Assembly (NCBI GenBank): GCA_019322435.1
Contig: JAHWIR010000005.1
Location: forward strand, 67,443 to 131,442
From: Candidatus Woesearchaeota archaeon
GTDB lineage: Archaea > Nanobdellota > Nanobdellia > Woesearchaeales > WJKL01
Reading direction: 5' to 3'
DNA: 64,000 nucleotides
The translations under genes were made by a program, and so were the position numbers. A model generated the notes under the pieces. It worked only from the letters and a program-made list of their open reading frames with translations. It did no database searches and was not told the origin of the DNA. This document shows positions 11,401 to 62,789 of this stretch, in pieces (position 1 is the stretch's first letter; each line of letters starts with the position of its first letter).

Positions 11401-11518
11401 TCACATCCTTGTCTCCGCTGTATTTGGTCATCTCAAAGGTTGTTGCTGCATAAGCTATAGGGAGAGATAGGATTAGCAAAATCATTACAATGGCTTGTGT
11501 TATTATTGTCTTATTCAT
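8474..11518 (-). CDS. Large secreted protein with a Cys-rich C-terminal domain, hypothetical.
   Basis: The ORF track starts at a TTG (11530). An in-frame ATG at 11518 (MNKTIITQAIVMILLILSLPIAYA, a signal peptide) is the more likely start and overlaps the upstream stop. The C-terminal ~300 aa carry >20 Cys. Confidence 0.55.
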   Translation of the reverse strand: MNKTIITQAIVMILLILSLPIAYAATTFEMTKYSGDKDVNGYFEEYDRWFLVANAEVDGDSEITPNQVKINKEFPFQECTRTAGNLFTCTYTGEYYTLPISTYPATFTLHSDTGVVLKTVEKDMTIDNLAPEITLTGDVVQDLQEVIIPLKVTDRANENEFTRCSGISRIEFLDGSRLLHEIIIDSPEQCIFSNTTIVSLSYSDTILIKAYDRMGFVASETITGFIHDNNPPIILPNSFELLKDGIPIGNSAPGEPFKAVIKIKIEDDTVQNLEARADLSDIGAGSDITTTDCIEDGFYITCTWSDVNVDISAGKTAHLFFHATDAYGNQAAPALVTRDFNIDTDAPEITFIGTDYAFEGKSYIGDKPVDIIVKLTETGSGISSSQISLYLSLINPDYGNDVKADRCDQAGSTWTCRWHNLTTTKSHGSSLSVFIVTARDNAGNIATGTTSANIIVDTQDPIIDSVEWVAFEETQRPEGVAVSHDSLAVVVQGTDEAGIRAIGNFSGVYDHIDADELPATECTKTGNEFQCYWNIPSIKSGYVNTTMDIKILDSAGNFDTADKSIEIFALEDDEYPDYWTVDSVNIQPSKGIDTQLAMIVEPRVYAVVDLSTDSEAEIVDISIRECTGDDYETFVEGEGIFNNGRGTTNPYLVFQFDDADYPIKDSPLKFNCTIELVSLYNNQLSYIEEEIIEIAVPLYSNRLGEASSEIKEKIKKSKDEFIDSWWADIDKWRNYMGLAEQICDAILALQDLEVIIGTVKLAVDDIGAPGKAVSIAACMTEEFVGETKEGMYGEVTKFCKFWNCRLSPDPEKEKGAWGVVGGWQETGNWILNLCGGDIANRWFGGAKDKAKDPNEYLNAKDNLFVAVATLCIPGILAAAERYRQIGCRHIICLKGSANTGVSTHACDELKHYEICKYLVGELFNACPITAVFSNIINSVKQALSEPLTVIGVSIEAVCLYLCATNRKRNAACRIYELLIMGIELYEDVVGILEPDNYIYTAGEDYCKTAEKLLK

Positions 11519-13610: not shown

Positions 13611-13706
13611 TATTGTTCCCCTCAAGGTAAAAATATCTATTTACCCTTTATAAACTTTGCGATAAATTGAGATGGAAATTATGATACTCATATCATTTTG
13701 GGTAAA

Positions 13707-29800: not shown

Positions 29801-32734
29801 TTTGGCGTGGCTTGGGATGGAGAGTATTTATGGTGTACTAGTCCCTCTAGAGGCAAGATGTACAAAGTTTCCACAGGAGGAACTATTTTAGACAGCTACA
29901 ACGATACAGGAGGCAGATTGTTTGACTTGGCTTGGGATGGGAAGTATTTATGGGCTTTAGATTATGATTGGGATGCTATACACAAACTAGAGAAAGACAG
30001 AATTGTGGTTTCTTTTGACAGCCCTGGAGGTAATCCAAGAGGTTTGACTTGGGATGGACAGCATATATGGAATGTAGATTCTAGTAGTGATAGATTATAT
30101 CAAATCACTACTAAAGGAGACGTTATAAGCAATTGCAATATCTTTGGTGGTGAACCTGTTGGATTGACTTGGGATGGAAATAATTTTTGGTATTCTGCTA
30201 CTGATACTGGTGGAATGTACAAGATAGATTCTAGCTGCAATATTCTTAATAGTTTTGGAAATCCTGGAGGACCAGATGCCAGTGGACTTACTTGGGATGG
30301 AAGTTATCTATGGAGTGCTAATAGTGGAAATGATAAAATCTTCAAATCTACTACTGGCGGAAGTGTTGTAGACAGCATTAATAGCCCCAATTCAAGCCCT
30401 GCTGGGCTAACTTTTGATGGTGTTTATTTCTGGAACTCGGATGGAAATGGTCAAATATATAGGCTTTTAACTGACGGGACAGTGCTTGAGAATTTTACAG
30501 GCCCTTCAACATTCATATTTGGCTTGGCTTGGCAGCCTACGGATGAAGTAATTGAATGTTATTCTGAGTCTGAGTGCGGAACAGACGAGTATGTTGGTGA
30601 AAATTACTGCATTGGAAATGATGTTTACAGGGATTATGGAGATTACAGCTGTTCTGATGCTGCAACACATAACTCTTCATGTGATTATACATCTACTCCT
30701 CAATTAAATGAAAGCTGTGGCAGCGGGGAAATTTGTTATAATGGGGGCTGCGTGGCTGTGAATTGCACTTCTGACCTGGAGTGTGGGCAGGATGTTTGGA
30801 TAGGAAATGGCTACTGCAGCAATGGAGATGTTTACCAGGTTCTTGGAAATCATAGCTGCGAAAATGTTGGAACTGTTAATGCAAGCTGCGGTTATAATGA
30901 ATATATTGCAGTAAAACTAGAATGCGGCAGTGGTTGTTCAAATGGAAAATGTGAAGGAGAAGGATATATGTGGCATTCTGATTCTGGTACTGACAAGATT
31001 TACAAGCTTGCAGAGGATTTTACTGTGGTGGAAAGCTTTGGCGCTCCTGGAGGTGCTCCTTATGATCTTACATATGACGGAGAATACCTGTGGCTTATTG
31101 AAAGTGACAGCGACAGGGTGTATAAGATAACAACAGAAGGGATTATAACTGATTATTTTAATTCTCCTGGAATAGCCCCTTTTGGACTGGAGTGGGATGG
31201 AAGCAATCTATGGCTGGCTGAGTCATCAAATGATATGATCTACAAGATGACAACTAACGGCAGTATTGTCTCTAATTTTAGCAGTCCTGGACCTTGGCCA
31301 AAAGGCTTGGCATGGGATGGCAGTTATTTGTGGCATGCTGACAATTATATAAATACTGAGATGATTTACAAGCTGGATACAAGCGGCAATGTTATTGACA
31401 GCTTTAGTTCTCCTAGTGATTCGCCGAGGGGATTGGAATGGGATGGAGAGTATTTGTGGAATGCTGATTCATATAGTGATAAGATATACAAGCTGACAAC
31501 ATCAGGGGCTGTTGTGGACAGTTTTGACAGCATTGGAGCAGTCCCAAATGGCCTTGCATGGAGTGAGGATATTAAGATAGTTTGTGTTGCTGATTCTGAC
31601 TGCGGAACAGACAAGTATATTGGAGACAAGTACTGCAATGGAAATAATGTTGTGCAGCTTTATAGAACTTATGATTGTGTGAATCCTGGAACTGTTAATT
31701 CTTCCTGCAGCCATGGTGATGCTGAAATTATCAGGGATACATGCAGTGGAAGCTGTGTTAGCGGAACATGTGATGATATTGCTTGTTATAGTGATGATGA
31801 CTGCGGAGATGATAGGTATGTTGGAAGCAAATATTGTCAATCAGGAGATGTATGGCAGGATTATAGAGAATATGATTGTGTAAATCCAAAAACTGTTAGT
31901 GCTGCCTGCTCAAGTTCTGATCAAGCTAAAAGAAGGAAAGATTGTGAATTTGGTTGTCAATCTGGTATTTGTTTGGATGAGCCGTCTGGATATGCTTGTT
32001 CAAGCAATGCTGGCTGCGGAACAGATGGTTATGTTGGAAGTCAGTATTGCAATGACGGAAATGAATGGCAGGATTGGAGAACATGGACATGCAATAATGC
32101 TGGAACAATTGATGCTTACTGCAGTTATGATGATAATCCACAGTTTAAGACAGGCTGTGCTGGAGGTTGCTTGGATGGGTGGTGTGTTGGTGCTGTATGC
32201 AATATAAATTCTGACTGCGGAACAGATGAATATATTGGAACTCCTTATTGCGATGGAAATGATGTTTATCAAGTTTATAGAGTGTGGAGTTGTGATGTTC
32301 CTGGAACTGACTCGTGCAGTTATACAGATGGCATTCAATTTAAAGAGGGTTGTGCTATTAACTGTTTGAATGGTGTTTGTGTTGATGATGACGGCAGGGG
32401 CAGCGGAGATGCTGACTTAGAAGTTTCATATTTCTTGCTGCAGTATCCTGATAATCCTGTTGCCGGAGATAGTGTTACTTTGACTTTCCATATACATAAT
32501 GTTGGCAATACTACTGTTGATGAAGCTGAGTGGAGATTAGACAGTGGAGCTGGATATTCTATTGGCGGTGTTGTAAGTGATTTAAAGGAAGGAGAAGGGA
32601 TGGGTGTTGGCAAGAAAATAACTTATTCAAGCGCTGGAACTTATTATGCAAAGGTTAAGGTTGACCCCAATAATAAAATTGAAGAATTTAATGAAGGAAA
32701 TAATGAAAAAGAATTGATTGTGGTGGTTTCATGA
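26885..32734 (+). CDS. Giant secreted adhesin-like protein (1949 aa).
   Basis: Signal peptide, then an N-terminal Cys-rich region. It carries MopE-type CDG-DNDCDG putative metal-binding motifs, ~14 ~42-aa GL.WDG.YLW..D...IYK beta-propeller blades in two blocks, ~9 ~60-aa Cys modules, and a C-terminal CARDB-like domain ending E.NEGNN. Confidence 0.7.
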   Translation: MGKKLLLAVVIVLLFSFEVYACSDDSDCADDQKCSLGSCLNIEDCLQDADCEMIDGHVRIVDVSPSICDGELVDITIEGILPFKMVDFFEIFGHSIAYPNGWIHDCFMNYNIDLQPGWSWDIIHGGETVAIGIGIYDDDGVGYDEIDSGLMTADTKINMYDDVNEGNCISVAFKHTFNNIDLSSFADGVDGDVELYAAAAGASSEQLDGTDDIDEFGAGYDDGYYSPQYNIDIDDDPPPTTDPEADPNTWTTVTTPNILGYAVVDSGSGVDHYEYQIDSTGGSWTGVGEETSFNTPSQSDGTHTVYVRAVDRCNPGDPGSVNVYINSQMNCECGGGECCSDGCNYDAAGSWCNEVELSQYDCLDGHGLGSDVYVRERYQKCTGSSAACSGTSYYDWGIKNECGPDEYCASDGDSSCTSCSTTCDDSCQSLKCHGIDPDCTSGGGSSQCSDQGGSCSGGNCVGVSCIYNPADACVDSSGCLRPGTFAWWMCDQNIQVEYACKEGNMAGDDVWEKAKNRFCSGTSPNCDGPLEWSWSQIEDCGANERCANDGDTTCTPTPAETCNGADDDYDGDVDEGLSGNLCPLQDGVCSGAREKCIGGSWQSCSSSTYGGDYQAAETRCDGLDNDCDGSVDGSLSRSCGVTWTGACTMGTESCSGGAWTGCTAVLPTTEVCDGSDSDCDGIKDGSEGFGTMDCYDAANSSYAGTGVCSYGYYECTDSGWGSDCVGDVGPEPENCVDGLDNDCDGYTDADDDDCRCDFDSDCGTDGDFIESYCSGNDLLDIYRNYSCINPGANNSCCNYTDYDVVQETCGNGCEYGRCIESGYLWVADYLNDKIHKTSKPGMILESIDISGVYLYGLTWDGEYFWYSDDATNKIYKLSKNGTVIFSFASPGPKPSGLAWDGEYLWHTDYGMDRVYKLTVDGEVVDSFSVPYAYAYGIEWDGNNLWISDYEGNINKLTTNGTVLDSIGVPTGVFGVAWDGEYLWCTSPSRGKMYKVSTGGTILDSYNDTGGRLFDLAWDGKYLWALDYDWDAIHKLEKDRIVVSFDSPGGNPRGLTWDGQHIWNVDSSSDRLYQITTKGDVISNCNIFGGEPVGLTWDGNNFWYSATDTGGMYKIDSSCNILNSFGNPGGPDASGLTWDGSYLWSANSGNDKIFKSTTGGSVVDSINSPNSSPAGLTFDGVYFWNSDGNGQIYRLLTDGTVLENFTGPSTFIFGLAWQPTDEVIECYSESECGTDEYVGENYCIGNDVYRDYGDYSCSDAATHNSSCDYTSTPQLNESCGSGEICYNGGCVAVNCTSDLECGQDVWIGNGYCSNGDVYQVLGNHSCENVGTVNASCGYNEYIAVKLECGSGCSNGKCEGEGYMWHSDSGTDKIYKLAEDFTVVESFGAPGGAPYDLTYDGEYLWLIESDSDRVYKITTEGIITDYFNSPGIAPFGLEWDGSNLWLAESSNDMIYKMTTNGSIVSNFSSPGPWPKGLAWDGSYLWHADNYINTEMIYKLDTSGNVIDSFSSPSDSPRGLEWDGEYLWNADSYSDKIYKLTTSGAVVDSFDSIGAVPNGLAWSEDIKIVCVADSDCGTDKYIGDKYCNGNNVVQLYRTYDCVNPGTVNSSCSHGDAEIIRDTCSGSCVSGTCDDIACYSDDDCGDDRYVGSKYCQSGDVWQDYREYDCVNPKTVSAACSSSDQAKRRKDCEFGCQSGICLDEPSGYACSSNAGCGTDGYVGSQYCNDGNEWQDWRTWTCNNAGTIDAYCSYDDNPQFKTGCAGGCLDGWCVGAVCNINSDCGTDEYIGTPYCDGNDVYQVYRVWSCDVPGTDSCSYTDGIQFKEGCAINCLNGVCVDDDGRGSGDADLEVSYFLLQYPDNPVAGDSVTLTFHIHNVGNTTVDEAEWRLDSGAGYSIGGVVSDLKEGEGMGVGKKITYSSAGTYYAKVKVDPNNKIEEFNEGNNEKELIVVVS

Positions 32735-34653: not shown

Positions 34654-34764
34654 AATTTATCCCTCTGATATATGAAGTTCTTTTGTTTTTTTTCAAGTTA
34701 TTATTTATATATTTTTTGTTTATTTCCATTAAGTTTATATATAAGTGAGACAAATTTATCATAT

Positions 34765-35412
34765 ATGGCAAAAGAAAGGTTAGAGGAAGTTTTGAAGAAA
34801 AAAGTAGAGCCTTTGCTAGAAGAAAGCATGCATAAGATTTTAGGGGTTACTATTTCTGAGTTTGGCAAAGATATATCTGACAAGATTGAAAGAAATCCAT
34901 TGATTGCATATGATATTGATACTGCTTTGGATTTTAAGGCTGCGAAGAAATTATTTAAGAAGCAGTTTTTGACAAGAATGCTGCAAACGCATTTTGGGAA
35001 TATATCTGCTGTTGCTCATATCACTGGATTAGATAGGAGGAGTGTCCACAGGGCTGTAAAAGAGCTGGGGATTGGCATTAAAGGGATTCGCAGGGATATG
35101 CTGAAAGCTGATTATTATAGAAAAGAAGCTGTTGGAGGCATATTGAAGAATACTCTTGAAAGTTATAAAGCAGTGATTAGGCCTGGGAAGCTGGAAGATA
35201 TGTATAAGAATGTTGATCAGATTAGTTCTGATATTGTGAAAGAACTGCCAACAATAGAGATGAGCTGGGATTCAGCTGAGAGGATGTTTGAAAAGCAGTA
35301 TTTTGAAAAGGCTTTGAAAGAGAATAAAGGCAATGTTTCTAAGACTGCAAGGAAGATTGGGTTAAGGTATGAGACATTGCATAGAAAGTTGAAGAAATTG
35401 GGGCTTAAATAG
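34765..35412 (+). CDS. DNA-binding protein with two Fis-type (HTH_8-like) helix-turn-helix motifs.
   Basis: GNISAVAHITGLDRRSVHRAVKELG and GNVSKTARKIGLRYETLHRKLKKLG both resemble Fis/NtrC C-terminal HTH. Start moved to the internal ATG at 34765 (MAKERLEEV). Confidence 0.45.
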   Translation: MAKERLEEVLKKKVEPLLEESMHKILGVTISEFGKDISDKIERNPLIAYDIDTALDFKAAKKLFKKQFLTRMLQTHFGNISAVAHITGLDRRSVHRAVKELGIGIKGIRRDMLKADYYRKEAVGGILKNTLESYKAVIRPGKLEDMYKNVDQISSDIVKELPTIEMSWDSAERMFEKQYFEKALKENKGNVSKTARKIGLRYETLHRKLKKLGLK

Positions 35413-41540: not shown

Positions 41541-41657
41541 GGATATACTATACTTAAATTGTTTATAAACCTTTCTATTATCCTCCAATATTGTAGGATA
41601 AATATTGATATATGCCAAGTGTGATTACTATATTATAACAAAATGGAGGAAAATAAA

Positions 41658-42317
41658 ATGAAAAAACTCGAAATATTAATTGTGGAAGACAATCCAAAAC
41701 ATTTGGAAGATGTAAAGACATACATCAATGAAAAGTTAGAAGCTGGAGCTGAAATTAAAGTTGATTATGCAAGCAACTTAAAGGAAGCTGAAGATTGCAC
41801 TGCAGAGAAGAAGTATGATGGAATAATCTGTGATATATTCTTTCCAGCAGGAAATGAGAATGAAAAAGAAGTAAAGGATGATGCTTATGAGGTTCTAAAA
41901 GCAATGTATCCAGATTCTATAGGGAAAAAAAGATATCTTGGAGATCTTGCAACAGATGATGATTTTGGGCCTTTAGGAGTAATTATGGCAGAAAAAGTAA
42001 AGGATGATGTTCCTTTTGTATTCTGTACAAGTACCTATCATCATGGAGATAAAACCCACTTCGTAGTAGACTATGCTGAAAAACAAAAGATACCCTTAAT
42101 AGAAATATCGCAGAAAGTCATTAGACTTATTTCAAGTGGTGACCTTGATAAAAACGTAGAACATACAGAAAAACAATGGGACGAGGCTTATTATGAATTG
42201 ATAAAGAAAGTTGTTTGTGATAAGTTTGGAGTAAAAGATAGATATGACCTTAATGAAGAACAAGAAGCTGAATTCAAACAGTTAAGGGAAAAGTATTATC
42301 CTCCAAAGAAAAAATAA
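41658..42317 (+). CDS. Orphan CheY-like receiver-domain protein, divergent.
   Basis: ILIVEDN acidic pocket, the phospho-acceptor-like D in DGIICDIFFP, and the T/S position in FVFCTST. GGAGGA lies 7 nt upstream of the ATG at 41658. No kinase in the window. Confidence 0.45.
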   Translation: MKKLEILIVEDNPKHLEDVKTYINEKLEAGAEIKVDYASNLKEAEDCTAEKKYDGIICDIFFPAGNENEKEVKDDAYEVLKAMYPDSIGKKRYLGDLATDDDFGPLGVIMAEKVKDDVPFVFCTSTYHHGDKTHFVVDYAEKQKIPLIEISQKVIRLISSGDLDKNVEHTEKQWDEAYYELIKKVVCDKFGVKDRYDLNEEQEAEFKQLREKYYPPKKK

Positions 42318-49615: not shown

Positions 49616-50149
49616 ATGGCAGAATTTAAATTGACAATAGCTGACCCTAAAACAGGAAAATGTGTTCAAAAGACTGTTGGAGGAGATGCTGCAAAGGGTT
49701 TTATTGGATTAAAGATAGGTGATACTGTAAAAGGAGAAGTCATGGACCTGACTGGTTATGAGTTTATACTAACTGGTGGAAGTGACTACTGCGGATTTCC
49801 AATGAGAAAAGGGATTTCAGGAGCAAGGAAAAGAGTGCTGGTCTTGAAAGGTGTTGGATTTCGCGGTGGGAAGAAAGGTATCAAGAGAAGGAAGACAGTG
49901 TGTGGAGAAGCAATAAATGAAAATATTGTTCAGATAAATCTTAAGATTGCAAAGAAAGGAAAAGCTGATCTAACTGCTGAAGCTCCTAAAGAGGAGAAGA
50001 AGGAAGAAGCAAAAGAGGCTCCGAAAGAAGAGAAAAAAGAAAAAGCAAAGGCAGAAGAAAAGCCTAAGGAAGAAGCTCCGAAAGAAGCTCCTAAGGAAAA
50101 AGCAAAGGCAGAGGAGAAGCCAAAAGAAGAAGCTAAAAAAGAAGGTTAG
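49616..50149 (+). CDS. rps6e: Ribosomal protein S6e with a K/E/A/P-rich C-terminal extension.
   Basis: N-terminus MAEFKLTIADPKTGKCVQKTV...GGSDYCGFPMRKG is S6e-typical. GGAGGA ribosome-binding site. Confidence 0.85.
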   Translation: MAEFKLTIADPKTGKCVQKTVGGDAAKGFIGLKIGDTVKGEVMDLTGYEFILTGGSDYCGFPMRKGISGARKRVLVLKGVGFRGGKKGIKRRKTVCGEAINENIVQINLKIAKKGKADLTAEAPKEEKKEEAKEAPKEEKKEKAKAEEKPKEEAPKEAPKEKAKAEEKPKEEAKKEG

Positions 50150-50307: not shown

Positions 50308-51537
50308 ATGGCAGACAAAGATAAACTACAACCTGAGATAAACATCGGAATGGTTGGTCATGTTGATCATGGCAAGACCACTTTAGTTAAGGCTCTTTCT
50401 GGGATATGGACTGATACGCATTCTGAAGAGATTAAAAGAGGGATTACAATAAGATTAGGGTATGCTGATGCTGTTTTTTACAGATGCGAGAAATGCAAGA
50501 AGTTTGTTGTTTCAAAGAAATGTTCTTGCGGTGGAAAGGCTTCAGTTGTCAGGAAAGTAAGTTTTGTTGATGCTCCTGGACATGAATCGTTGATGGCAAC
50601 AATGCTGTCTGGAGCTACTATAATGGATGGAGCTATATTGCTGATTGCTGCAAATGAAACATGCCCGCAGCCGCAGACAAGAGAGCATCTGATGGCACTG
50701 AAGATAAGCGGGATAAAGAATGTGGTTGTTGTGCAGAACAAGATCGATACTGTGAGCAAGGAAGATGCTGTTAAAAATTATAAAGAGATCAAGGCATTTT
50801 TGAAAGGAACTGATTATGAAAAATCTCATGTCATCCCTGTCTCTGCCCAGCAGAATATCAATGTAGATGTCTTGATTGAAGGTATTGAAAAGACAATTCC
50901 TACTCCTAAAAGAGATCCTAAAGCAAATCCACTTATGTTTGTTGCAAGAAGCTTTGATATCAACAAGCCTGGAGCTGCTCCAGATAGCCTTGTTGGAGGA
51001 GTGTTAGGTGGGGCTCTTAAGCAGGGAGTGCTAAGGGTTGGAGAAGAGATTGAGATAAAGCCTGGATTGGGCATAGAAGATAAAAACCAAAAGAAATGGA
51101 TCCCTATAAAGACTGTGATTGCTGATTTGAAGACAGGCGGGAAAAGCGTGAAAGAAGTTGGTCCTGGCGGAAGCATAGGTGTGATGACAGCACTTGACAA
51201 TACTGTTGTCAAGTCAGACAGCTTGGCTGGCAGTGTTGTTGGCTTGCATGGACAATTGCCTCCTGTATGGAATGATCTTAGCCTGGATGTTCATCTGCTT
51301 GAGAGGGTTGTTGGAGCTGAAGAAGATCTGAAAGTTGAAGCCATCAAAATGAAAGAACCATTAATGCTTAATGTTAACTCAGCTGCAACTGTTGGTGTTG
51401 TTACAGAGCTTGGAAAGGATTCTGTTAAATGTATTTTAAAATTGCCTGTCTGCGCTGATGTCGGAAGCAATGTGACTATTTCTAGAAGGATTGGGACTAG
51501 GTTTAGATTGATTGGTTATGGTGTTATTAAAGAATAA
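50308..51537 (+). CDS. eif2g: Translation initiation factor 2 subunit gamma (aIF2-gamma).
   Basis: G1 motif GHVDHGKTT, zinc ribbon CEKCKKF...CSCGG, and NKID G4 motif. 409 aa. Confidence 0.9.
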   Translation: MADKDKLQPEINIGMVGHVDHGKTTLVKALSGIWTDTHSEEIKRGITIRLGYADAVFYRCEKCKKFVVSKKCSCGGKASVVRKVSFVDAPGHESLMATMLSGATIMDGAILLIAANETCPQPQTREHLMALKISGIKNVVVVQNKIDTVSKEDAVKNYKEIKAFLKGTDYEKSHVIPVSAQQNINVDVLIEGIEKTIPTPKRDPKANPLMFVARSFDINKPGAAPDSLVGGVLGGALKQGVLRVGEEIEIKPGLGIEDKNQKKWIPIKTVIADLKTGGKSVKEVGPGGSIGVMTALDNTVVKSDSLAGSVVGLHGQLPPVWNDLSLDVHLLERVVGAEEDLKVEAIKMKEPLMLNVNSAATVGVVTELGKDSVKCILKLPVCADVGSNVTISRRIGTRFRLIGYGVIKE

Positions 51538-57497: not shown

Positions 57498-57998
57498 ATG
57501 GCAAAAAAGAAGAGCGTGTTTAACAGCAAGGCAAAGACAAAGGGATTTAGCTTTGGACTGACTTCTGGGATTATCACTACATTGGGAATGATTGTTGGAT
57601 TAGAGTCTGCTGTCCAGGATAGTTTTGTGATTATTGCAGGAATATTGTCCATTGCAATTGCAGATGCTTTTTCAGATGCTTTAGGAATACATATTTCTGA
57701 AGAAGCTGAGGCAGAGCATACCAAAAGGAGCATATGGACTGCAACAAGGTATACATTCTTATCTAAATTTGCTTTTGCACTGGTGTTTATTATTCCTTTT
57801 TTGATGCTTGATATTGCTAATGCGATGATTATCAGTGTTGCTTTTGGATTGGTTGCTATTTCAGTCTACAGTTATATCATTGCAAAGAAGCAGAATAAGA
57901 AACCTTTCAAGGTCATTGGAGAGCATCTACTGATTTCTGTTATTGTGATAATTGCAACGCATTATGTTGGAGATATAATTAGGATTGTGATTGGTTAG
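57498..57998 (+). CDS. VIT1/CCC1-family-like membrane protein.
   Basis: GLTSGIITTLGMIVGL...IAGILSIAIADAFSDALGIHISEE resembles VIT-family helix pairs. 166 aa with 4-5 TM helices. Confidence 0.45.
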   Translation: MAKKKSVFNSKAKTKGFSFGLTSGIITTLGMIVGLESAVQDSFVIIAGILSIAIADAFSDALGIHISEEAEAEHTKRSIWTATRYTFLSKFAFALVFIIPFLMLDIANAMIISVAFGLVAISVYSYIIAKKQNKKPFKVIGEHLLISVIVIIATHYVGDIIRIVIG

Positions 57999-58773
57999 AA
58001 TTATAATAGATAGCTGGTTTCAAAACCTCAAGCCTGTTCCTGCCTTGTTTTTTTGCTTTAAGCAATGCTTCATCTGCTTTTTCAAACATATCAAACATAC
58101 CAAAAGAATCTTCATTATAGTGGCACAAGCCCATGCTCAGTGTGATTCTATGGTTATTCTTTATCTTTTTATCTCGAATCCATATTTCTATGTCCCTATT
58201 GAAATCTGATCTTACGCGTTCTCCTACAACAACTCCTTCTTTGGGTGTTGTATTGGGTACTGCTGAGATAAATTCATCACCACCCCATCTGCCTAAGAAT
58301 AATCGGTCATAGGGCCTTAATGTTCTTTGAATTGTTTCAGCTGATTTTATAAGCAATTCATTTCCCCTAAAATGCCCGTAATTATCATTTATGAGTTTAA
58401 GGCCGTCTATGTCTATAAAAAGACAGGCAACACCTTTTGGTTCTTCCTTTCTTAATTGCAGTTTATATGATCTATATTGTTTTTCATATTCTTTAATTAA
58501 CTCTTGCGTGTTTTCTTCGAATCCTGTTTTATTCAGAAGTCCTGTCAGGGAGTCTATGATTATTTTTTCTTTTAGATCCTTATTCTGTTCTTCTAATTCT
58601 TTTTTCTGTTCTTCTAATTCTTTTTTCTGTTCTTCTAATTCTTTTTTCTGTTCTTCTAATTTTTTAAGGTACGCATTCTCCTCTTCTAATTGTTCAACAT
58701 ACTTAGAAAGAAAACTTCTTTCTTCGTTATTAGCAATGTATCCAATGAGTTTTTCTATTGTCGCTGGCGCCAT
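57979..58773 (-). CDS. GGDEF-domain diguanylate cyclase with an N-terminal coiled-coil.
   Basis: LTGLLNKTGF...FIDIDGLKLINDNYGH..GNELL...RLFLGRWGGDEFISAV...SMGL...ADEALLKAKKQGRN matches a complete GGDEF domain with the GG[DE]EF signature intact. The N-terminus has KKELEEQ heptad repeats. Confidence 0.85.
   Translation of the reverse strand: MAPATIEKLIGYIANNEERSFLSKYVEQLEEENAYLKKLEEQKKELEEQKKELEEQKKELEEQNKDLKEKIIIDSLTGLLNKTGFEENTQELIKEYEKQYRSYKLQLRKEEPKGVACLFIDIDGLKLINDNYGHFRGNELLIKSAETIQRTLRPYDRLFLGRWGGDEFISAVPNTTPKEGVVVGERVRSDFNRDIEIWIRDKKIKNNHRITLSMGLCHYNEDSFGMFDMFEKADEALLKAKKQGRNRLEVLKPAIYYNSNQSQS
58580..58665. repeat. Four in-frame 21-bp tandem repeats inside the GGDEF gene, encoding (KKELEEQ)n.
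   Basis: TTCTGTTCTTCTAATTCTTTT repeated four times on the plus strand. Confidence 0.6.
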
Positions 58774-58813
58774 ATAGCAAGGAGAAAGGAGTAATAATAT
58801 TTAAATGTTTTTT

Positions 58814-59251
58814 TTAAGATGAGATTTTATATTCGTGTTTTGCTATATCTTTTACTAATGTAACTTCGTGTAATTGTTCACTTAATTTCATAACCTTATT
58901 AAATATTTTTAATGCATCATCCAGCTGTTTGTCAGTATGGATGTTCTTTCCTGTTTGTTTGTGATAGGCCATTTCCAAGCTGCCTCCTCCGATAAATACT
59001 TCTTTTACAACTTTGTTTTCAATAATTACCTGGACAGAAACAATATGCGAAGGTTTTACTTTAGCTAAATCTTTTTCTTTTATGCCGAGATATTTAAGAG
59101 CTTCCTGTATATGGTGTTTTTTTGAAAGAACATGATGGACTTCTTTCTTTTTTATATCAATCAATAATTTAAGCTTGTTTTTATTCAGCATATCCCTTAA
59201 TTCAATTTCATCAAAATGCTTTACTTCTCTTAATTCAACTTTTCCAAGCAT
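58814..59251 (-). CDS. Hypothetical protein.
   Basis: 145-aa ORF. Confidence 0.4.
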   Translation of the reverse strand: MLGKVELREVKHFDEIELRDMLNKNKLKLLIDIKKKEVHHVLSKKHHIQEALKYLGIKEKDLAKVKPSHIVSVQVIIENKVVKEVFIGGGSLEMAYHKQTGKNIHTDKQLDDALKIFNKVMKLSEQLHEVTLVKDIAKHEYKISS

Positions 59252-59283
59252 AGAATATAGTTTATGCTAATGGTATAAATAAT

Positions 59284-59550
59284 TTATTCTAATTCAACAA
59301 CATTTGTTGTCTTTAACTTAATCCCGTATTTTCTTAGGTCAACAATTGATTCAATGTGTTTTCTTTCCAAGGCCATGTAATCTTCATAGCTGGCTGGCTT
59401 TAGTTTTTTGATTATCTTCTTGAATGCTTCTGTGTTTGTCCTGAAGACTAGGCCTAAAATCTTGTGCTTTTGGATGCATCTATGGCAGTAGAAATTTGCT
59501 CCAATCATTTCAAGCCATGTTTGCTCTTTGTTGCAGTTGTCGCATTTCAT
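59284..59550 (-). CDS. Zinc-finger hypothetical protein.
   Basis: CDNC...CHRC. Confidence 0.4.
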   Translation of the reverse strand: MKCDNCNKEQTWLEMIGANFYCHRCIQKHKILGLVFRTNTEAFKKIIKKLKPASYEDYMALERKHIESIVDLRKYGIKLKTTNVVELE

Positions 59551-59660
59551 GTTTTTGGAAGGAAATTATATGGGTTTTTAAGGGTTTTGGTTAATTATAT
59601 AGTGATTTAGCAAAAAAATTATAAATAGGACTATAATCTTGGTTTTGGGGGGTAATTGAT

Positions 59661-59843
59661 ATGGCTGGAAAACATAAGGGATTCCATTTATTTACTGAAT
59701 TTTTAGGGGTGTTGTTGGGGACATACTTGTTTGTTTTAGGGTTGTTTTTAGAGGTGCATTACATGATAAAATTGTCCTTGATACTAACTGGCATAGGCGG
59801 AATGCTGATAGATTCTTATTGTATAACAACCTGGCTGAAATAG
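59661..59843 (+). CDS. Small membrane protein.
   Basis: 60-aa ORF with two hydrophobic helices. Confidence 0.25.
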   Translation: MAGKHKGFHLFTEFLGVLLGTYLFVLGLFLEVHYMIKLSLILTGIGGMLIDSYCITTWLK

Positions 59844-59854
59844 AGTTTTGACAA

Positions 59855-59869
59855 AGGTTTATAAACTTC
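59855..59869 (+). promoter_or_regulatory. BRE/TATA promoter for the 59888 gene.
   Basis: AAAGGTTTATAAACT lies about 25 bp upstream of the ATG. Confidence 0.4.
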
Positions 59870-59887
59870 TTTAGTTTTATATATAGT

Positions 59888-60319
59888 ATGAAGAAAATAT
59901 ATCTAATCTTAATATTATTGATATTGATAACTGGATGCAAATCTTCTTCGGTTGTAACGTCTGTTAAAGTAGTTGAAGAATCCAAGCCAATCATTATTGG
60001 GATTGATATCATAGAGAAATCTGTCCATAATTACATTGTCGGAGCTGAAGCAGAAGGAAAGTATCTTGCATTCAATGTGGAGGTTGCAAATGCCGGAGCA
60101 GGGGCATTTGATATAACAAAAGGGGATATTGAATTAAAAGACAAAGAAGGGAACAGGTATTTTATAGATGAGACTGTCTCTTATTACAGAGAAGACAGGT
60201 TTTCTGAAGTTACGATTCAGCCAAATGGAGATGTCAGTCTGAGGCTGGTCTTTGATGTGCCTGACCCTAACAAGGATTTCACTTTAATTATAAAGGGGAA
60301 ATCTGTTAAAGTAGAATAA
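59888..60319 (+). CDS. Lipoprotein-like secreted protein.
   Basis: ...LILITGCKSSS looks lipobox-like. A BRE/TATA box (AAAGGTTTATAAAC) about 25 bp upstream suggests a leaderless transcript. Confidence 0.45.
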   Translation: MKKIYLILILLILITGCKSSSVVTSVKVVEESKPIIIGIDIIEKSVHNYIVGAEAEGKYLAFNVEVANAGAGAFDITKGDIELKDKEGNRYFIDETVSYYREDRFSEVTIQPNGDVSLRLVFDVPDPNKDFTLIIKGKSVKVE

Positions 60320-60350
60320 GATTTAAATATAACAAATTCTTGCTAATCCT

Positions 60351-60653
60351 ATGAGTGTTTTAGAAGTTACTGCAGAAGAAGAAAAAGGATTAAGTGCTTT
60401 TTATCAGGATGAAAGATATAGGGAAACTGGAAGATGCACTAAGAAAGGTATTCTAATTTTTTTTAAACCTGTGGATAGGGAACCAAGTTTTGGTGGATTG
60501 AATGAAATAATTCTTATGGCTTTTGATGGTTTTTATAAGGCAATAGGAGTTTCTGAGTATGTCAATGGAAAATTTAAATTTGTTGATGGTGTTTTAGCTG
60601 CAGATGTTTATGTTGAGCCTTTGGCTGACGTGGTTATAAGAAGTTTTGGATGA
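60351..60653 (+). CDS. Hypothetical protein.
   Basis: 100-aa ORF. Confidence 0.3.
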   Translation: MSVLEVTAEEEKGLSAFYQDERYRETGRCTKKGILIFFKPVDREPSFGGLNEIILMAFDGFYKAIGVSEYVNGKFKFVDGVLAADVYVEPLADVVIRSFG

Positions 60654-61004
60654 TTATCTGGATTCTCTTTTTTTCTTCATGAATACCAGCAATAACCAGG
60701 CCAGAACAAATGCAGGAATAGGAGCAATGATCAAGAATATAGGGATGTGCCAGAAAACTTTTTCTGTTCTTATGAAATTAAAGTCTATAGCAAACCATAT
60801 CATCACTATTATGCCGATTGTAAAAGCAAATATTGCTGCTTGTTTTTCATACTTGTAAGCAAGATAAGGCCATACCAGGATTGGAATCAATATGATAAAT
60901 GCAATTATCTTGTTTTGGCTTTCAACTAAAACGAGAATTAGGTATAATAGGATAATTGCTGTTCCTATGTTTAGGATAATTCTTTTTAATGTCTCTGGCT
61001 TCAT
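60654..61004 (-). CDS. Small membrane protein.
   Basis: 116-aa ORF with 3-4 TM helices. Confidence 0.4.
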   Translation of the reverse strand: MKPETLKRIILNIGTAIILLYLILVLVESQNKIIAFIILIPILVWPYLAYKYEKQAAIFAFTIGIIVMIWFAIDFNFIRTEKVFWHIPIFLIIAPIPAFVLAWLLLVFMKKKRESR

Positions 61005-61056
61005 ATTACTGAGAAATGAGAAAACTACTATTTAAAAGTTTGTATAGAACAAACAG

Positions 61057-61081
61057 ACTTAGAAAATTTTTAATTTTCTAA
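61057..61081 (-). terminator. Perfect 10-bp-stem hairpin overlapping the stop of the nuclease gene.
   Basis: CTTAGAAAAT-TTTTA-ATTTTCTAAG. Confidence 0.35.
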
Positions 61082-62457
61082 GTATTCTTTTCGATAAAAT
61101 TTTTGACAACAACTTCTGCTTTACAGTCTTCTTTGTTGTATCTTAGGATTTCTTTCAGATAAGATTTTTTTCCTGTCTCAAGCCATCTGTCATACCATAT
61201 CATTGACTGGCCTCCAGAGGCTTTTTCAGAAGTCCATTTAAATCCTAGGAAAGAGGCAATGTCTTTTATTCCATAAGAATAGACAGGGAATATTGTTGTT
61301 TTCCTTACAACTGACAATAAATCAATCATGTTATTGATGATCTTATTGTATGTCTCTTTGTCTCCTTTGTGTTTTTCATAGAGTTTTTTCAGCATTGATT
61401 TCTCATGCCCTGAATAGACGTACAGCTTGAAGTTGTCTTTGTCTTTGAAGAAAGAGAGGAAGGATTTCCATGCCTGTTTTTCTTTAGAAGGCTTGTCTGC
61501 AAGGAAATATTTGTATTTTCCATTGATGACTATGCCAAACAAGTAGACAACCTTATCCTTGTTGACCTGCGTGTCTTCAACATCAAAATATATGTCTTCT
61601 GCTTCTGGAAAGCTGTAATCAGATATCTTTATGGGTTTCTTGGTTATTAATGCTTGGGCTTGTAATTTCCATCTTTCTAAAGAAGCTCTTCCAAAGCCTT
61701 TTACTTTTGACAATTCTTCGATATCCATTTTAGAAGCATCAATAAGATTTTTTATTCCCAGTCTTTTCAGCTTATCTGCATTGTCTCTTGATATATTGAA
61801 GACCAAGCTGAGGTCATTTGCTTTTTCTGCAATTGAAAAGCAGAAGTTTTTCCACTGGCATTCTTTGCATTCTCCGCAAATGTGGATATTCTCTTCTTTG
61901 CCTTTTGCAATGTCTTTAATCTTTACGAACATGTCTGAGAATCTGTTGAAGTAATCCTGTGTTTCTAGTTCTTTTATTGTTCCGTCTCCAAGCCACAGCT
62001 TGAATTTTAAAGGGCAGAATCCCTGTATTTTTTCTAATAGATAGCAATAGAAGCAGACCTGCATTGTGTATGTGTCTTTTGCTGACAATCCTGATTTGAT
62101 GTCCATTGGCTGATAATAATAATTGCCTAATTTGCTTTTTCCTTTCTTTTTTTCCAGGAAGTCTGGGATTCCAATCAGGTTCTTGTCTATTAAAACAGCC
62201 TGATAGATGAGTTTTTCTCCTTTTTTCATGAAGTCTAATGTTTGCTTGGCTGCTTGTTCATAAGAAATATCTTCTTCTGGCTTGGCAAATGTGAATTTTT
62301 TGATGACTTCTGCTTCATATTCCCTGCCTTCTTTCATCTTTTCCCTCATGAATTCAGAAAAAGGGATCCTCTTGGAAGGGTCTCCAAAGAAATGCAGATA
62401 GACTTTTCTAGGGCATTTTACAAATTCATAGAAGTTTGTTGCTCTGATTGGTTTCAT
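61078..62457 (-). CDS. RecB/Cas4-like PD-(D/E)xK nuclease domain with a 4-Cys cluster, fused to a C-terminal RNase H-like domain (TM0106-family-like).
   Basis: N-terminal ATNFYEFVKCPRKVYLHF and a mid-protein CGECKECQWKNFC cysteine cluster, typical of Fe-S Cas4/RecB-type nucleases. Family assignment is by pattern only. Confidence 0.45.
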   Translation of the reverse strand: MKPIRATNFYEFVKCPRKVYLHFFGDPSKRIPFSEFMREKMKEGREYEAEVIKKFTFAKPEEDISYEQAAKQTLDFMKKGEKLIYQAVLIDKNLIGIPDFLEKKKGKSKLGNYYYQPMDIKSGLSAKDTYTMQVCFYCYLLEKIQGFCPLKFKLWLGDGTIKELETQDYFNRFSDMFVKIKDIAKGKEENIHICGECKECQWKNFCFSIAEKANDLSLVFNISRDNADKLKRLGIKNLIDASKMDIEELSKVKGFGRASLERWKLQAQALITKKPIKISDYSFPEAEDIYFDVEDTQVNKDKVVYLFGIVINGKYKYFLADKPSKEKQAWKSFLSFFKDKDNFKLYVYSGHEKSMLKKLYEKHKGDKETYNKIINNMIDLLSVVRKTTIFPVYSYGIKDIASFLGFKWTSEKASGGQSMIWYDRWLETGKKSYLKEILRYNKEDCKAEVVVKNFIEKNT

Positions 62458-62789
62458 TTTCCATTATAAATAACAGAACTTTTTTCTGTTTCCCATAATC
62501 TCAATAGATGCAGGTTTAAGGGTTTTAGTTTATTCCAGATGTATTTTACAATGTTTTCAGCTGTTGGATTTTTTATAGTGTCATTAAGATAAGAGTGGTC
62601 TAGGATAGAAATAACTTTTTCTTTAACAATTGAATCTAGTTCACGAAAATCAATAACCATTCCGTTTTTAACTTTTCCTTTGACAGCAACTTCTAATTTA
62701 TAAGAATGACCATGCAGTTTGCTGCAGTTTCCGTTGTAATTTGGCAGTTTGTGCGCTGCTTCAAATCTAAATTCTCTTATTACAATCAT
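62454..62789 (-). CDS. queD: 6-carboxy-5,6,7,8-tetrahydropterin synthase (QueD/PTPS family).
   Basis: REFRFEAAHKLP...CSKLHGHSY (CxxxHGH) then DHSYLND. ATG at 62789 is preferred over the ORF-track TTG at 62807. Confidence 0.75.
   Translation of the reverse strand: MIVIREFRFEAAHKLPNYNGNCSKLHGHSYKLEVAVKGKVKNGMVIDFRELDSIVKEKVISILDHSYLNDTIKNPTAENIVKYIWNKLKPLNLHLLRLWETEKSSVIYNGK

What the first reader, a model, noticed from the sequence alone, without database searches (positions are those of the whole stretch)
57979..58773. Intact GGDEF diguanylate cyclase in an archaeal genomic context
The C-terminal 170 aa have every hallmark of an active GGDEF domain: GG[DE]EF as RWGGDEF, an upstream RxxD-like I-site region, and the DxLTGL, NRR-equivalent and ...KxxGRN motifs. 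They follow a KKELEEQ coiled coil. c-di-GMP signalling domains are essentially absent from cultured archaea, so this is either a rare archaeal c-di-GMP or related cyclic-dinucleotide signalling component or a bacterial acquisition. The flanking genes look native: an archaeal-type promoter architecture and AT-rich codon usage like the rest of the window. No EAL, HD-GYP or PilZ effector is in the window. A CheY-like orphan receiver is encoded at 41658-42317.
Basis: partly seen in the sequence, partly recalled or inferred. Interest (0 to 1): 0.65.

Follow-up and report, generated by a model that had tools for sequence, protein, structure and literature searches.

The report
Bacterial-type GGDEF cyclase in an archaeon
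A gene for a GGDEF-type cyclic-dinucleotide synthase, a signalling enzyme regarded as almost exclusively bacterial, sits inside a DPANN (Woesearchaeota) archaeal chromosome with an archaeal promoter, but the residue that normally selects GTP is changed, so its product is uncertain.

Summary
ORF 57979-58773(-) encodes a 264-aa protein (NCBI MBW2996026.1) with a 57-residue helical stalk and a complete GGDEF domain (Pfam 107 bits; AlphaFold pLDDT 92).

The contig is archaeal (S6e and archaeal aIF2-gamma 6-8 kb away), and nothing suggests the gene is an assembly artefact:
- No tetranucleotide or codon-usage break.
- A perfect archaeal TATA box (TTTAAATA) at -32 with no Shine-Dalgarno, in the position where TATA boxes cluster for the window's genes.
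- An independent assembly reproduces the right flank, the promoter and the first 47 codons at 99.96% identity.

The gene is of bacterial ancestry. Among 5.8 billion proteins it has one close relative (62% identity in the domain), and that gene has a sigma-70 promoter and a Shine-Dalgarno. All other relatives are 40% identical or less, and those with names or context are bacterial. dN/dS of 0.22 indicates purifying selection.

The Asp that reads the guanine base (PleD D344) is Asn138 here, through one G-to-A change. Asn occurs in 2 of 238 nearest homologues and 0 of 155 other GGDEF domains. Activity and product (c-di-GMP, or a relaxed-specificity product) are therefore unproven. No EAL, HD-GYP, PilZ or riboswitch partner is in the window.

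It is a well-authenticated new member of a known family in an unusual host. Archaeal GGDEF hits in metagenome bins have already been noted in the literature.

The parts
57979..58773 (-). Gene for the 264-aa stalk + GGDEF protein (NCBI MBW2996026.1)
   Evidence: ORF; Pfam GGDEF 107 bits; AlphaFold pLDDT 92.3; Foldseek top hits are coiled-coil-linked diguanylate cyclases; accession.
58033..58560 (-). GGDEF catalytic domain (residues 72-247), with DSLT hinge, DxD/K, N129, Asn138 at the base-specificity position, RPYD I-site-like motif, 7-residue spacer, GGDEF and KxxGRN
   Evidence: Pfam envelope; residue-by-residue conservation in 238 homologues; PDB alignments.
58360..58362 (-). Codon AAT for Asn138, where canonical enzymes and the sister gene have GAT/GAC (Asp, PleD D344 equivalent)
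   Evidence: Asp in 155/155 other GGDEF domains.
58558..58728 (-). N-terminal stalk: one predicted continuous helix (residues 16-72) leading into the DxLT hinge, with Leu at heptad position a (-7, -14, -21, -28 and -35 from D74)
   Evidence: AlphaFold secondary structure and pLDDT 92-98; heptad phase compared with 160 homologues.
58583..58665 (-). 21-bp x 4 near-perfect tandem repeat encoding KKELEEQ heptads. It accounts for most of the exact 35-aa (5-heptad) length difference from the sister protein
   Evidence: Tandem Repeats Finder; the repeat finder D1, D3; pairwise alignment gap of exactly 35 residues.
58798..58805 (-). Archaeal TATA box TTTAAATA, 8/8 match, starting 32 nt upstream of the ATG, preceded by an A-rich stretch. 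No Shine-Dalgarno, implying a leaderless or very short-leader mRNA
   Evidence: Sequence; positional enrichment of TTTAWATA at -33..-27 across the window's genes.
57498..57998 (+). Convergent neighbour, a VIT1-family membrane protein whose 3' end overlaps the GGDEF 3' end by 20 bp (context, no demonstrated functional link)
58814..59251 (-). Co-directional upstream neighbour, 145 aa, from a tiny family of unknown function (context only; linkage is not conserved next to the sister gene)
   Evidence: No Pfam/NCBIfam hit; 16 representatives in 1.84 billion; absent next to P0002; single-sequence model unusable.

Best explanation
This is a genuine chromosomal gene of a DPANN (Woesearchaeota) archaeon. 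It encodes a stand-alone GGDEF-family cyclic-dinucleotide synthase descended from a bacterial gene and has been domesticated in the archaeal host.

Shown:
- The domain is complete and predicted to fold as a GGDEF domain.
- The gene shares the host's composition.
- It has the host's TATA-box and leaderless promoter layout.
- It has evolved under purifying selection relative to its only close relative, which sits behind bacterial expression signals.

Inferred mechanism: the 57-residue N-terminal helix pairs with a second copy as a parallel coiled coil. This brings two catalytic domains, each holding one nucleoside triphosphate and Mg2+ (D121, D123, GGDEF D166/E167, K126, R162, K241, R245), face to face so that two phosphodiester bonds form a cyclic dinucleotide. 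The RPYD motif may give product feedback inhibition.

The protein has no sensor domain. Output would therefore be set by expression level, by a partner binding the stalk (as SiaC does for SiaD), or be constitutive. The last heptad has Lys at d and Ile at e, which would favour the a/e register described as the active one for DgcR.

The product is most likely c-di-GMP. However, the guanine-reading Asp is Asn138, so reduced activity or relaxed purine specificity is a real possibility. Downstream receptors are unknown.
For: Domain and fold:
- Pfam and NCBIfam domain calls.
- All catalytic residues except one are invariant or near-invariant positions in 238 homologues, and are kept.
- AlphaFold pLDDT 92.3, with helix 16-72 followed by the GGDEF core.
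- Top Foldseek hits are 3i5c (GCN4 zipper-WspR), 7e6g (SiaD-SiaC), 6et7 (PadC), 3bre (WspR) and 6ttr (DgcB coiled coil + GGDEF).

Archaeal host:
- aIF2-gamma passes the archaeal equivalog TIGR03680 (617 bits against 514.5).
- Ribosomal protein S6e and type III RuBisCO.

Not chimeric:
- Tetranucleotide z from -0.78 to +0.06 across the gene.
- Codon-usage z -0.60.
- TTTAAATA at -32. The consensus is enriched at -33..-27 in the window: 20 of 46 matches against 5.1 expected, P=2.5e-8.
- Independent Logan assembly of run SRR14699983 matches window 61384..58632 at 99.96% over 2,753 bp. It includes the promoter and codons 1-47, and stops inside the tandem repeat.
- Flanking genes on both sides have relatives at 90% identity or more in another Woesearchaeota MAG.

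Bacterial ancestry:
- One close relative, P0002, then a drop from 377 to 118 bits. All named hits are bacterial.
- The top 80 hits among GTDB species representatives are all bacterial, at 27-37% identity.
- P0002 has TTGACA-16-TACAAT (11/12) plus GGGAGA before the ATG, and a pectate-lyase fragment as neighbour.
- The next-nearest relatives sit beside ClpB, or beside a bacterial-type LeuRS and TsaD.

Selection: dN/dS 0.22 against P0002.

Stalk:
- The length difference from P0002 is exactly 35 aa, or 5 heptads.
- Leu lies at -7k from DxLT, matching the homologues' hydrophobic phase.
- This fits the multiples-of-7 rule and register-switch model of PMC8041772.
Against: - Asn138 replaces the Asp that contacts the Watson-Crick face of guanine. 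Asp-to-Ser changes at this site inactivated 4 of 5 canonical enzymes (PMC6456294). Asn is seen in only 2 of 238 nearest homologues and 0 of 155 other domains, and the sister gene keeps Asp. The change could therefore be recent and damaging.
- The RxxD-to-GG spacer is 7 rather than 5 residues, so I-site function is uncertain.
- The repeat heptads carry only one hydrophobic residue each and are E/K-rich. They may form a single stable helix rather than a dimeric coiled coil.
- No phosphodiesterase, receptor or riboswitch is in the window, and c-di-GMP has not been detected in any archaeon (PMC10249747).
- The left-hand junction was not reproduced by an independent assembly.
- dS is saturated (about 1.5), so dN/dS is only a rough average and says nothing about the period since the Asn change.
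- The bacterial origin of P0002 rests on expression signals and one neighbour fragment on a 1.3-kb contig.
Confidence: 0.6

Rival explanations
1. Degenerate or impaired domain. The gene is genuinely archaeal, but Asn138 abolishes or cripples GTP binding. The protein would then be a nucleotide-binding receptor or scaffold (through the RxxD site or half-active site), or be on its way to loss.
For: - Asn at the guanine-reading position is very rare (2/238; 0/155).
- The sister gene keeps Asp, so the change is a single recent G-to-A transition.
- Asp-to-Ser at this site inactivated most canonical enzymes (PMC6456294).
- No partner genes lie nearby.
Against: - Every other catalytic residue, including the GGDEF motif itself, is intact. 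Known degenerate GGDEF receptors usually lose the signature motif (own knowledge).
- The ORF is full length with an intact promoter.
- Asn is isosteric with Asp and can still hydrogen-bond a purine Watson-Crick edge (inference).
Confidence: 0.22
2. Altered-specificity (Hypr-like) cyclase. Asn138 relaxes or switches purine selection, so the enzyme makes c-di-AMP and/or 3',3'-cGAMP, possibly feeding the c-di-AMP signalling that archaea are known to use.
For: - The same position (Ser348 in GacA) is the determinant of promiscuity in Hypr GGDEFs.
- Natural Ser/Thr variants always carry GGDEF rather than GGEEF, as this protein does (PMC6456294; cross-tabulation).
- The Asn amide can pair with either adenine (N6-H/N1) or guanine (O6/N1-H) (inference).
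- c-di-AMP is established in archaea while c-di-GMP is not (PMC10249747).
Against: - No experimental data on Asn at this site were found.
- Hypr enzymes also depend on other residues such as the cross-dimer Tyr, which was not examined here.
- The many Ser/Thr variants among the nearest hits may simply reflect shared GGDEF words in the index search.
Confidence: 0.13
3. Assembly or binning artefact. A bacterial fragment carrying the GGDEF gene was joined to, or binned with, archaeal sequence.
For: - Published caution that archaeal GGDEF and HD-GYP ORFs from MAGs may be contamination (PMC5847659; preprint 10.1101/2021.11.05.467447).
- The left junction is not independently reassembled.
- All non-sister relatives are bacterial.
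Against: - The gene lies on the same contig as aIF2-gamma and S6e, 6-8 kb away, so binning is irrelevant.
- No composition or codon break.
- The gene's own promoter is archaeal and it lacks a Shine-Dalgarno, whereas its bacterial-context sister has a sigma-70 promoter and a Shine-Dalgarno.
- The right junction is reproduced at 99.96% identity.
- Its 3' end overlaps the neighbouring gene by 20 bp.
- There is no repeat at which a chimeric join could form apart from the internal heptad repeat.
Confidence: 0.03
4. Cargo of a virus, plasmid or defence island, rather than a chromosomal signalling gene.
For: - The surrounding 54-61 kb holds many small ORFs of unknown function and a RecB/Cas4-like nuclease.
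- GGDEF shares the palm fold with Cas10, and weak PADLOC hits reflect this.
Against: - No PADLOC system.
- No integrase, tRNA or att-like flanking repeats.
- IMG/VR relatives are 36% identical or less, no closer than bacterial ones, and there are none for the 145-aa neighbour.
- Composition is the same as the rest of the contig.
- The nuclease is a TM0106-family protein conserved in another Woesearchaeota MAG.
Confidence: 0.02

Closest known systems
SiaD (Pseudomonas aeruginosa; PDB 7e6g), a stalk + GGDEF diguanylate cyclase activated by the small protein SiaC
   Same: - Same two-part architecture, a long N-terminal helical stalk followed directly by GGDEF, with no sensor domain or membrane segment.
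- The matched PDB chain is also 264 residues.
- Best NCBIfam hit (118.8 bits) and third-best Foldseek hit.
   Different: - The score is far below the SiaD equivalog cutoff of 290 bits, with about 23% identity, so it is not an orthologue.
- No SiaA, SiaB or SiaC genes are nearby, and the 145-aa neighbour has no detectable similarity to SiaC.
- Archaeal host.
- Asn at the base-reading site.
Coiled-coil-linked GGDEF cyclases WspR, PadC, DgcR and C. crescentus DgcB (PDB 3i5c, 3bre, 6et7, 5llx, 6zxb, 6ttr)
   Same: - GGDEF fold and catalytic residues.
- A helix running into the DxLT hinge, with Leu at position a, 7 residues before DxLT.
- Linker length varying in whole heptads.
   Different: - Those enzymes carry an input domain (receiver or phytochrome) that drives the register switch. 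This protein has none.
- Position d of the last heptad is Lys instead of the usual hydrophobic residue (84% hydrophobic in homologues).
- The RxxD-to-GG spacer is 7 rather than 5 residues.
Hypr GGDEF enzymes (GacA of Geobacter, Bd0367 of Bdellovibrio; PDB 5VS9/6d9m)
   Same: - A non-Asp residue at the base-selectivity position.
- GGDEF, never GGEEF, as the signature.
   Different: - The residue is Asn, not Ser or Thr.
- No receiver domain.
- No cGAMP riboswitch nearby.
- Promiscuity is untested.
Methanocella arvoryzae RCIX2274 (CAJ37382), plus GGDEF hits in Asgard and DPANN metagenome bins
   Same: GGDEF domains attributed to archaea. They are discussed in the literature as the only or doubtful archaeal cases.
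   Different: - The Methanocella protein is a large REC-PAS-PocR-GGDEF-HD-GYP fusion, while this one is a minimal stalk + GGDEF.
- The MAG hits were reported only as BLAST counts, without authentication. Here contiguity, promoter type, composition and an independent assembly were tested.

Membership tests
GGDEF domain family (Pfam PF00990 / TIGR00254) | Full-length match to the family profile above the curated threshold | tested here: met
   PF00990 107.3 bits against 23.8, profile positions 2-161 of 161; TIGR00254 105.8 bits against 37.4.
GGDEF domain family (Pfam PF00990 / TIGR00254) | GGDEF alpha/beta palm-like fold | tested here: met
   AlphaFold pLDDT 92.3; 123 PDB matches at E<=0.001, and the top 50 listed are all GGDEF-domain (diguanylate cyclase family) structures, with probability 1.00.
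Catalytically active diguanylate cyclase | Signature GG[DE]EF with metal- and phosphate-binding residues (DxD, Lys of DxxK, Arg before GG, KxxGR) | tested here: met
   D121, D123, K126, R162, G164-F168, K241 and R245 are all present at columns that are invariant or near-invariant in 238 homologues.
Catalytically active diguanylate cyclase | Guanine recognition by Asn (PleD N335) and Asp (PleD D344) | tested here: not met
   N129 is present, but the Asp position is Asn138. At this position the counts are Asp 190, Thr 24, Ser 22 and Asn 2 of 238, and Asp in 155/155 other domains.
Catalytically active diguanylate cyclase | Ability to dimerise so that two GGDEF domains meet | tested here: inconclusive
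   A 57-residue helix in the heptad phase of known coiled-coil linkers. However, there is only one hydrophobic residue per repeat heptad, and only a monomer was modelled.
Catalytically active diguanylate cyclase | Synthesis of c-di-GMP from GTP | not testable with these tools
   Requires an enzyme assay or LC-MS of extracts.
Product-inhibited DGC (I-site) | RxxD exactly five residues before GG[DE]EF | tested here: not met
   RPYD aligns with RxxD (R in 231 and D in 226 of 238), but the spacer is 7 residues. Only this protein and P0002 differ from the 5-residue spacer seen in the other 236.
Hypr GGDEF (cGAMP/c-di-AMP-producing) | Ser or Thr at the selectivity position, combined with GGDEF | tested here: not met
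   The residue is Asn, not Ser or Thr. The GGDEF central Asp is present.
SiaD equivalog (NF038266) | Score above the equivalog cutoff, with a siaABC neighbourhood | tested here: not met
   118.8 bits against a cutoff of 290. No SiaA, SiaB or SiaC-like neighbours.
Native archaeal gene (as opposed to contaminant) | Physical contiguity with archaeal marker genes, host-like composition, and archaeal promoter layout | tested here: met
   S6e and aIF2-gamma on the same contig; no composition or codon break; TATA at -32 and no Shine-Dalgarno; right junction reproduced in an independent assembly.
Complete c-di-GMP signalling module | A cognate phosphodiesterase (EAL or HD-GYP) and a receptor (PilZ, MshEN or riboswitch) in the genome | tested here: inconclusive
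   None in this 64-kb window. The rest of the 139.9-kb contig and of the genome could not be read.

The most novel reading that the evidence does not exclude
A DPANN archaeon has captured a bacterial GGDEF gene and, through a single Asp-to-Asn change at the base-selectivity position, repurposed it to make a different cyclic dinucleotide (c-di-AMP or 3',3'-cGAMP). This would be a third natural selectivity class of GGDEF enzymes and the first GGDEF-based second-messenger synthase operating in Archaea, possibly acting on unknown archaeal receptors or on a host cell.
Probability: 0.1. Interest if true: 0.8.

Novelty: new member of a known kind. Interest (0 to 1): 0.5.

Why it matters
Whether any archaeon uses GGDEF-based cyclic-dinucleotide signalling is still open.
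- c-di-GMP has not been detected in archaea.
- Specialists have said that the GGDEF and HD-GYP ORFs seen in archaeal metagenome bins still need to be shown not to be bacterial contamination (PMC5847659, PMC10086821, 10.1101/2021.11.05.467447).

This locus passes every in-silico authenticity test available here. It is a small (264 aa), soluble, sensor-less protein, so it is a practical candidate for cloning and a product assay.

The Asn at the selectivity position adds a second testable question: what determines nucleotide choice in GGDEF enzymes beyond the known Asp/Ser dichotomy.

The contrast between the archaeal copy (TATA box, leaderless) and its sister (sigma-70 promoter plus Shine-Dalgarno) is also a clear example of how a gene transferred between domains is re-fitted for expression.

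Tried and rejected
1. RNA markers. Rfam and tRNA scans of the whole window found nothing, so no RNA-based taxonomy and no c-di-GMP or cGAMP riboswitch.
2. Source contig. Fetching the NCBI contig around the gene failed because the product is not indexed. The other 76 kb of the contig could not be searched for partners.
3. Hallberg 2016 (PMC4763787) is not held. No data on Asn at the selectivity position were found in held papers.
4. The JGI metagenome scan gave only one distant hit at 33% identity.
5. The GTDB scan gave only bacterial hits at 37% identity or less. The source genome itself did not appear among the 80 hits kept.
6. The P0002 contig is too short (1.3 kb) for a firm taxonomic call. 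Its neighbour's only relative lies on a 60%-GC contig from a different organism, so that gives only weak support.
7. Left-junction test. The 212-aa neighbour is not in Logan, and the Logan contig with the 275-aa gene is only 990 bp.
8. The 145-aa upstream neighbour as a SiaC-like activator. It has no family hit and belongs to a tiny family. The single-sequence AlphaFold model was unusable at pLDDT 48 and was not fold-searched. The linkage is not conserved next to P0002, so the idea was dropped.
9. Defence or mobile-element reading. PADLOC, viral scans and repeat searches were all negative.
10. The enrichment of Ser/Thr (Hypr-type) variants among the nearest hits (46/238) is probably a word-index effect of the shared GGDEF string. 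It was not used as phylogenetic evidence.
11. No formal phylogenetic tree was built. At 40% identity or less to everything but P0002, a donor lineage could not be resolved.
Full report
**Observation**

The ORF at 57979-58773 on the minus strand exists as described and encodes 264 residues. It matches the Pfam GGDEF model end to end (E=8.9e-31, 107 bits against a 23.8-bit threshold; residues 72-247) and the TIGR00254 domain model. The first 70 residues contain KKELEEQ heptads encoded by a 21-bp x 4.0 tandem repeat with 98% matches at 58583-58665. An AlphaFold model built on 70 homologues is confident (mean pLDDT 92.3). It shows one continuous helix (residues 16-72) running into the DxLT hinge, followed by the GGDEF core. 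Its best matches among solved structures are all coiled-coil-linked diguanylate cyclases: the GCN4-zipper-WspR fusion 3i5c, SiaD-SiaC 7e6g, PadC 6et7/5llx, WspR 3bre and DgcB 6ttr.

**Is the context archaeal, and is the gene really part of it?**

The window encodes ribosomal protein S6e (49616-50149) and aIF2-gamma (50308-51537). The latter passes the archaeal equivalog model TIGR03680 (617 bits against 514.5). Both lie 6-8 kb from the GGDEF gene on the same contig. A type III RuBisCO, PolX, and TrmB/AsnC-type regulators fit a DPANN archaeon. NCBI holds the identical protein as MBW2996026.1, 'GGDEF domain-containing protein [Candidatus Woesearchaeota archaeon]', on a 139,878-bp contig.

Four tests argue against a chimeric or contaminant origin.

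1. Four-kb tetranucleotide windows over the gene are within -0.78 to +0.06 SD of the window mean. The only outlier in the window is the 27-33 kb interior of a giant surface-protein gene.
2. Synonymous codon usage of the gene has z = -0.60 relative to 52 genes.
3. The archaeal TATA consensus TTTAWATA (7 of 8 matches or better) is concentrated 27-33 nt upstream of start codons in this window: 20 of 46 matches, 5.1 expected, P=2.5e-8. This is the layout of leaderless archaeal genes. The GGDEF gene has a perfect TTTAAATA at -32 and no Shine-Dalgarno.
4. An independent assembly of run SRR14699983 (Logan contig, 2,753 bp) is 99.96% identical to window 61384-58632. It carries the same five right-flank genes, the intergenic promoter and the first 47 codons of the GGDEF gene, and ends inside the 21-bp repeat, where a short-read assembler would be expected to break.

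Flanking genes on both sides (the DUF6485 gene at 54951 and the RecB-like nuclease at 61078) have relatives at 90% identity or more in a different Woesearchaeota MAG. The left junction could not be reproduced independently because the Logan assembly is fragmented there. However, the gene's 3' end overlaps the neighbouring VIT1-family gene by 20 bp.

**Where did it come from?**

In a 5.8-billion-protein database the full protein and the domain alone each find one close relative, P0002 (50% identity overall, 62% in the domain). Scores then fall from 377 to 118 bits. All other hits are 40% identical or less, and every named one is bacterial. The 80 best hits among 185,579 GTDB species representatives are all bacterial at 27-37% identity. 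A JGI metagenome scan found nothing close, and IMG/VR hits are no closer than bacterial ones.

P0002 and the window protein share a unique 7-residue spacer between RxxD and GG; the other 236 of 238 homologues have 5. They therefore form a real two-member lineage. P0002 lies on a 1.3-kb, 43%-GC contig behind a near-perfect sigma-70 promoter (TTGACA-16-TACAAT, 11 of 12 matches) and a GGGAGA Shine-Dalgarno 2 nt before the ATG. Next to it is a fragment of a periplasmic pectate lyase gene. The next-nearest relatives sit beside ClpB, or beside a bacterial-type LeuRS and TsaD.

The simplest reading is a transfer from bacteria to the archaeon, old enough for synonymous sites to saturate (dS about 1.5) and for composition and promoter to be re-fitted. 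dN/dS is 0.22, so the protein has been under purifying selection over most of that time.

**Is it active, and what does it make?**

Alignment with 238 homologues and with solved structures shows that the following are all present: the metal ligands (D121, D123, D166/E167), the transition-state Lys (K126), N129, R162, the GGDEF signature, and K241/R245.

The exception is the residue equivalent to PleD D344 / GacA Ser348, which contacts the Watson-Crick face of the substrate base (PMC6456294). Here it is Asn138 (codon AAT), whereas P0002 has Asp (GAT), a single transition. Asn occurs in 2 of the 238 nearest homologues, one of them this protein, and in none of 155 GGDEF domains from the fetched GTDB and IMG/VR loci.

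The literature held here describes Asp (GTP-specific) and Ser/Thr (promiscuous 'Hypr' enzymes, always with GGDEF rather than GGEEF). It also reports that Asp-to-Ser changes inactivated four of five canonical enzymes. I found no data on Asn. By inference, the Asn amide could pair with guanine (O6/N1-H) or adenine (N6-H/N1). The outcomes range from a normal or weakened diguanylate cyclase, through relaxed specificity, to loss of activity.

**Mechanism of control**

The protein has no sensor, receiver or membrane segment. Teixeira et al. (PMC8041772) showed that GGDEF linkers vary in steps of seven residues, carry Leu at heptad position a, and switch between an a/d (inactive) and an a/e (active) register.

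In 160 homologues of this protein, hydrophobic residues peak at -7 (93%), -14 (74%), -21 (62%) and -4 (84%) from the DxLT Asp. The window protein has Leu at -7, -14, -21, -28 and -35, Lys at -4 and Ile at -3. Its stalk is exactly 35 residues (five heptads) longer than P0002's, largely through the near-perfect 21-bp repeat.

I infer a parallel dimeric stalk that presents two catalytic domains. It would be biased toward the active register, with output set by expression or by an unknown stalk-binding partner as in SiaD-SiaC. The caveat is that each repeat heptad has a single hydrophobic residue in an E/K-rich background, which could instead form a monomeric stiff helix. The RPYD motif aligns with the inhibitory RxxD site, but the longer spacer makes feedback inhibition uncertain.

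**Partners**

No EAL, HD-GYP, PilZ or MshEN protein and no riboswitch was found in the window. There is no defence-system context.

The co-directional 145-aa and 88-aa upstream genes have no family assignment. The 145-aa protein belongs to a family with 16 representatives in 1.84 billion, and it is not linked to P0002.

The 'CheY-like receiver' at 41643-42317 is plausible from its motifs but scores below threshold (26.2 bits against 30.2). It lies 16 kb away with no evidence of a link.

**Comparison with what is known**

By sequence and fold the protein is a member of the GGDEF family. It works like the stalk-linked cyclases (SiaD, WspR, PadC, DgcR, DgcB), but it is not an orthologue of any of them (SiaD model 118.8 bits against a 290-bit cutoff). 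It fails two canonical sub-features, the Asp at the base-reading site and the 5-residue I-site spacer, and it does not meet the Ser/Thr definition of Hypr enzymes.

**Novelty**

Reviews state that c-di-GMP has not been detected in archaea and that GGDEF proteins are almost absent there (PMC10249747). Galperin and colleagues knew one archaeal GGDEF (Methanocella arvoryzae) and warned that MAG-derived ones may be contamination. Römling wrote that their presence on archaeal contigs 'needs to be confirmed'. Braun et al. reported more than 300 BLAST hits in archaea, many in Asgard and DPANN bins.

The existence of such ORFs is therefore known, and this one is already annotated in GenBank. What is added here:
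- authentication of one case, through same-contig archaeal markers, an archaeal promoter, matching composition and an independent assembly;
- identification of a bacterial-context sister gene;
- the Asn138 and 7-residue-spacer peculiarities.

I rate it a new member of a known kind, of moderate interest (0.5). There is about a 10% chance that the Asn variant defines a new product specificity in an archaeon, which would be much more interesting.

Noticed in passing
window 3651-13625 (minus strand): Five co-directional genes with overlapping or abutting ends (633, 248, 729, 1018 and 704 aa). None has a hit in PADLOC or NCBIfam (both E<=1e-3), and none in Pfam (searched at E<=1e-5 for the four large genes and E<=1e-3 for the 248-aa one). 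A large operon-like block of entirely unknown function.
   Followed up: partly
window 26885-32734 (+): A giant 1,949-aa ORF with Vgb_lyase-type beta-propeller repeats, a CARDB domain and a MopE-like metal-binding motif. It is the only strong compositional outlier in the window (tetranucleotide z up to 3.4, GC up to 0.47). Probably a DPANN surface or adhesion protein, but a foreign origin was not excluded.
   Followed up: partly
window-wide, upstream of start codons: The TATA consensus TTTAWATA starts 27-33 nt before the start codon in 20 of 56 genes (P=2.5e-8). About 15 of 56 genes have a Shine-Dalgarno-like GG-containing 4-mer instead. This suggests a mixed but predominantly leaderless transcriptome in this Woesearchaeota lineage.
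   Followed up: yes
window 34672-35412 (+): A 246-aa protein ending in a bacterial Fis/NtrC-type HTH_8 domain (57 bits; best NCBIfam similarity is to the C-terminus of NtrX/NorR/NtrC) but lacking the AAA+ module. This is another bacterial-type signalling or regulatory domain in the archaeal window.
   Followed up: no
window 41643-42317 (+): A 224-aa protein whose N-terminal half looks like a divergent receiver domain (ILIVEDN, IICDIFFP with a candidate phospho-acceptor Asp, and a later K-IP). It is below the Pfam threshold (26.2 bits against 30.2) and has an unassigned C-terminal half. No histidine kinase was seen in the window.
   Followed up: partly
window 23109-24374 (+): A type III RuBisCO (TIGR03326, 591 bits against 497), typical of the archaeal and DPANN nucleoside-salvage pathway. 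Its start codon is TTG in the ORF list.
   Followed up: no
L001 (Logan ERR10503262 contig, 1,283 bp), 2-421 and 431-481: The only close relative of the GGDEF gene sits behind a textbook sigma-70 promoter and Shine-Dalgarno. Its neighbour is an ORF matching only positions 315-386 of a periplasmic pectate lyase profile, starting 68 residues before the match, so it is apparently truncated or a pseudogene.
   Followed up: partly
window 59577-59613 and 62515-62551: A 37-nt imperfect direct repeat (73% identity; TTTAAGGGTTTTGGTTAATTATATAG...) lies upstream of two minus-strand genes, the 88-aa zinc-ribbon gene and the RecB-like nuclease, at different distances from their starts. It may be a shared regulatory element or a chance match.
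   Followed up: no
window 61078-62457 (-): A TM0106-family RecB-like nuclease with Cas4-like and RNase H-like domains (TIGR03491, 320 bits) and no CRISPR array or cas genes nearby. It is conserved at 90% identity or more in another Woesearchaeota MAG and in several metagenome assemblies.
   Followed up: partly
protein P0199 (JGI, 175 aa, 2,261-bp contig): The only other natural GGDEF domain among the 238 nearest homologues with Asn at the base-selectivity position, also with GGDEF rather than GGEEF. Its context was not examined. It could serve as a second test case for the Asn variant.
   Followed up: no
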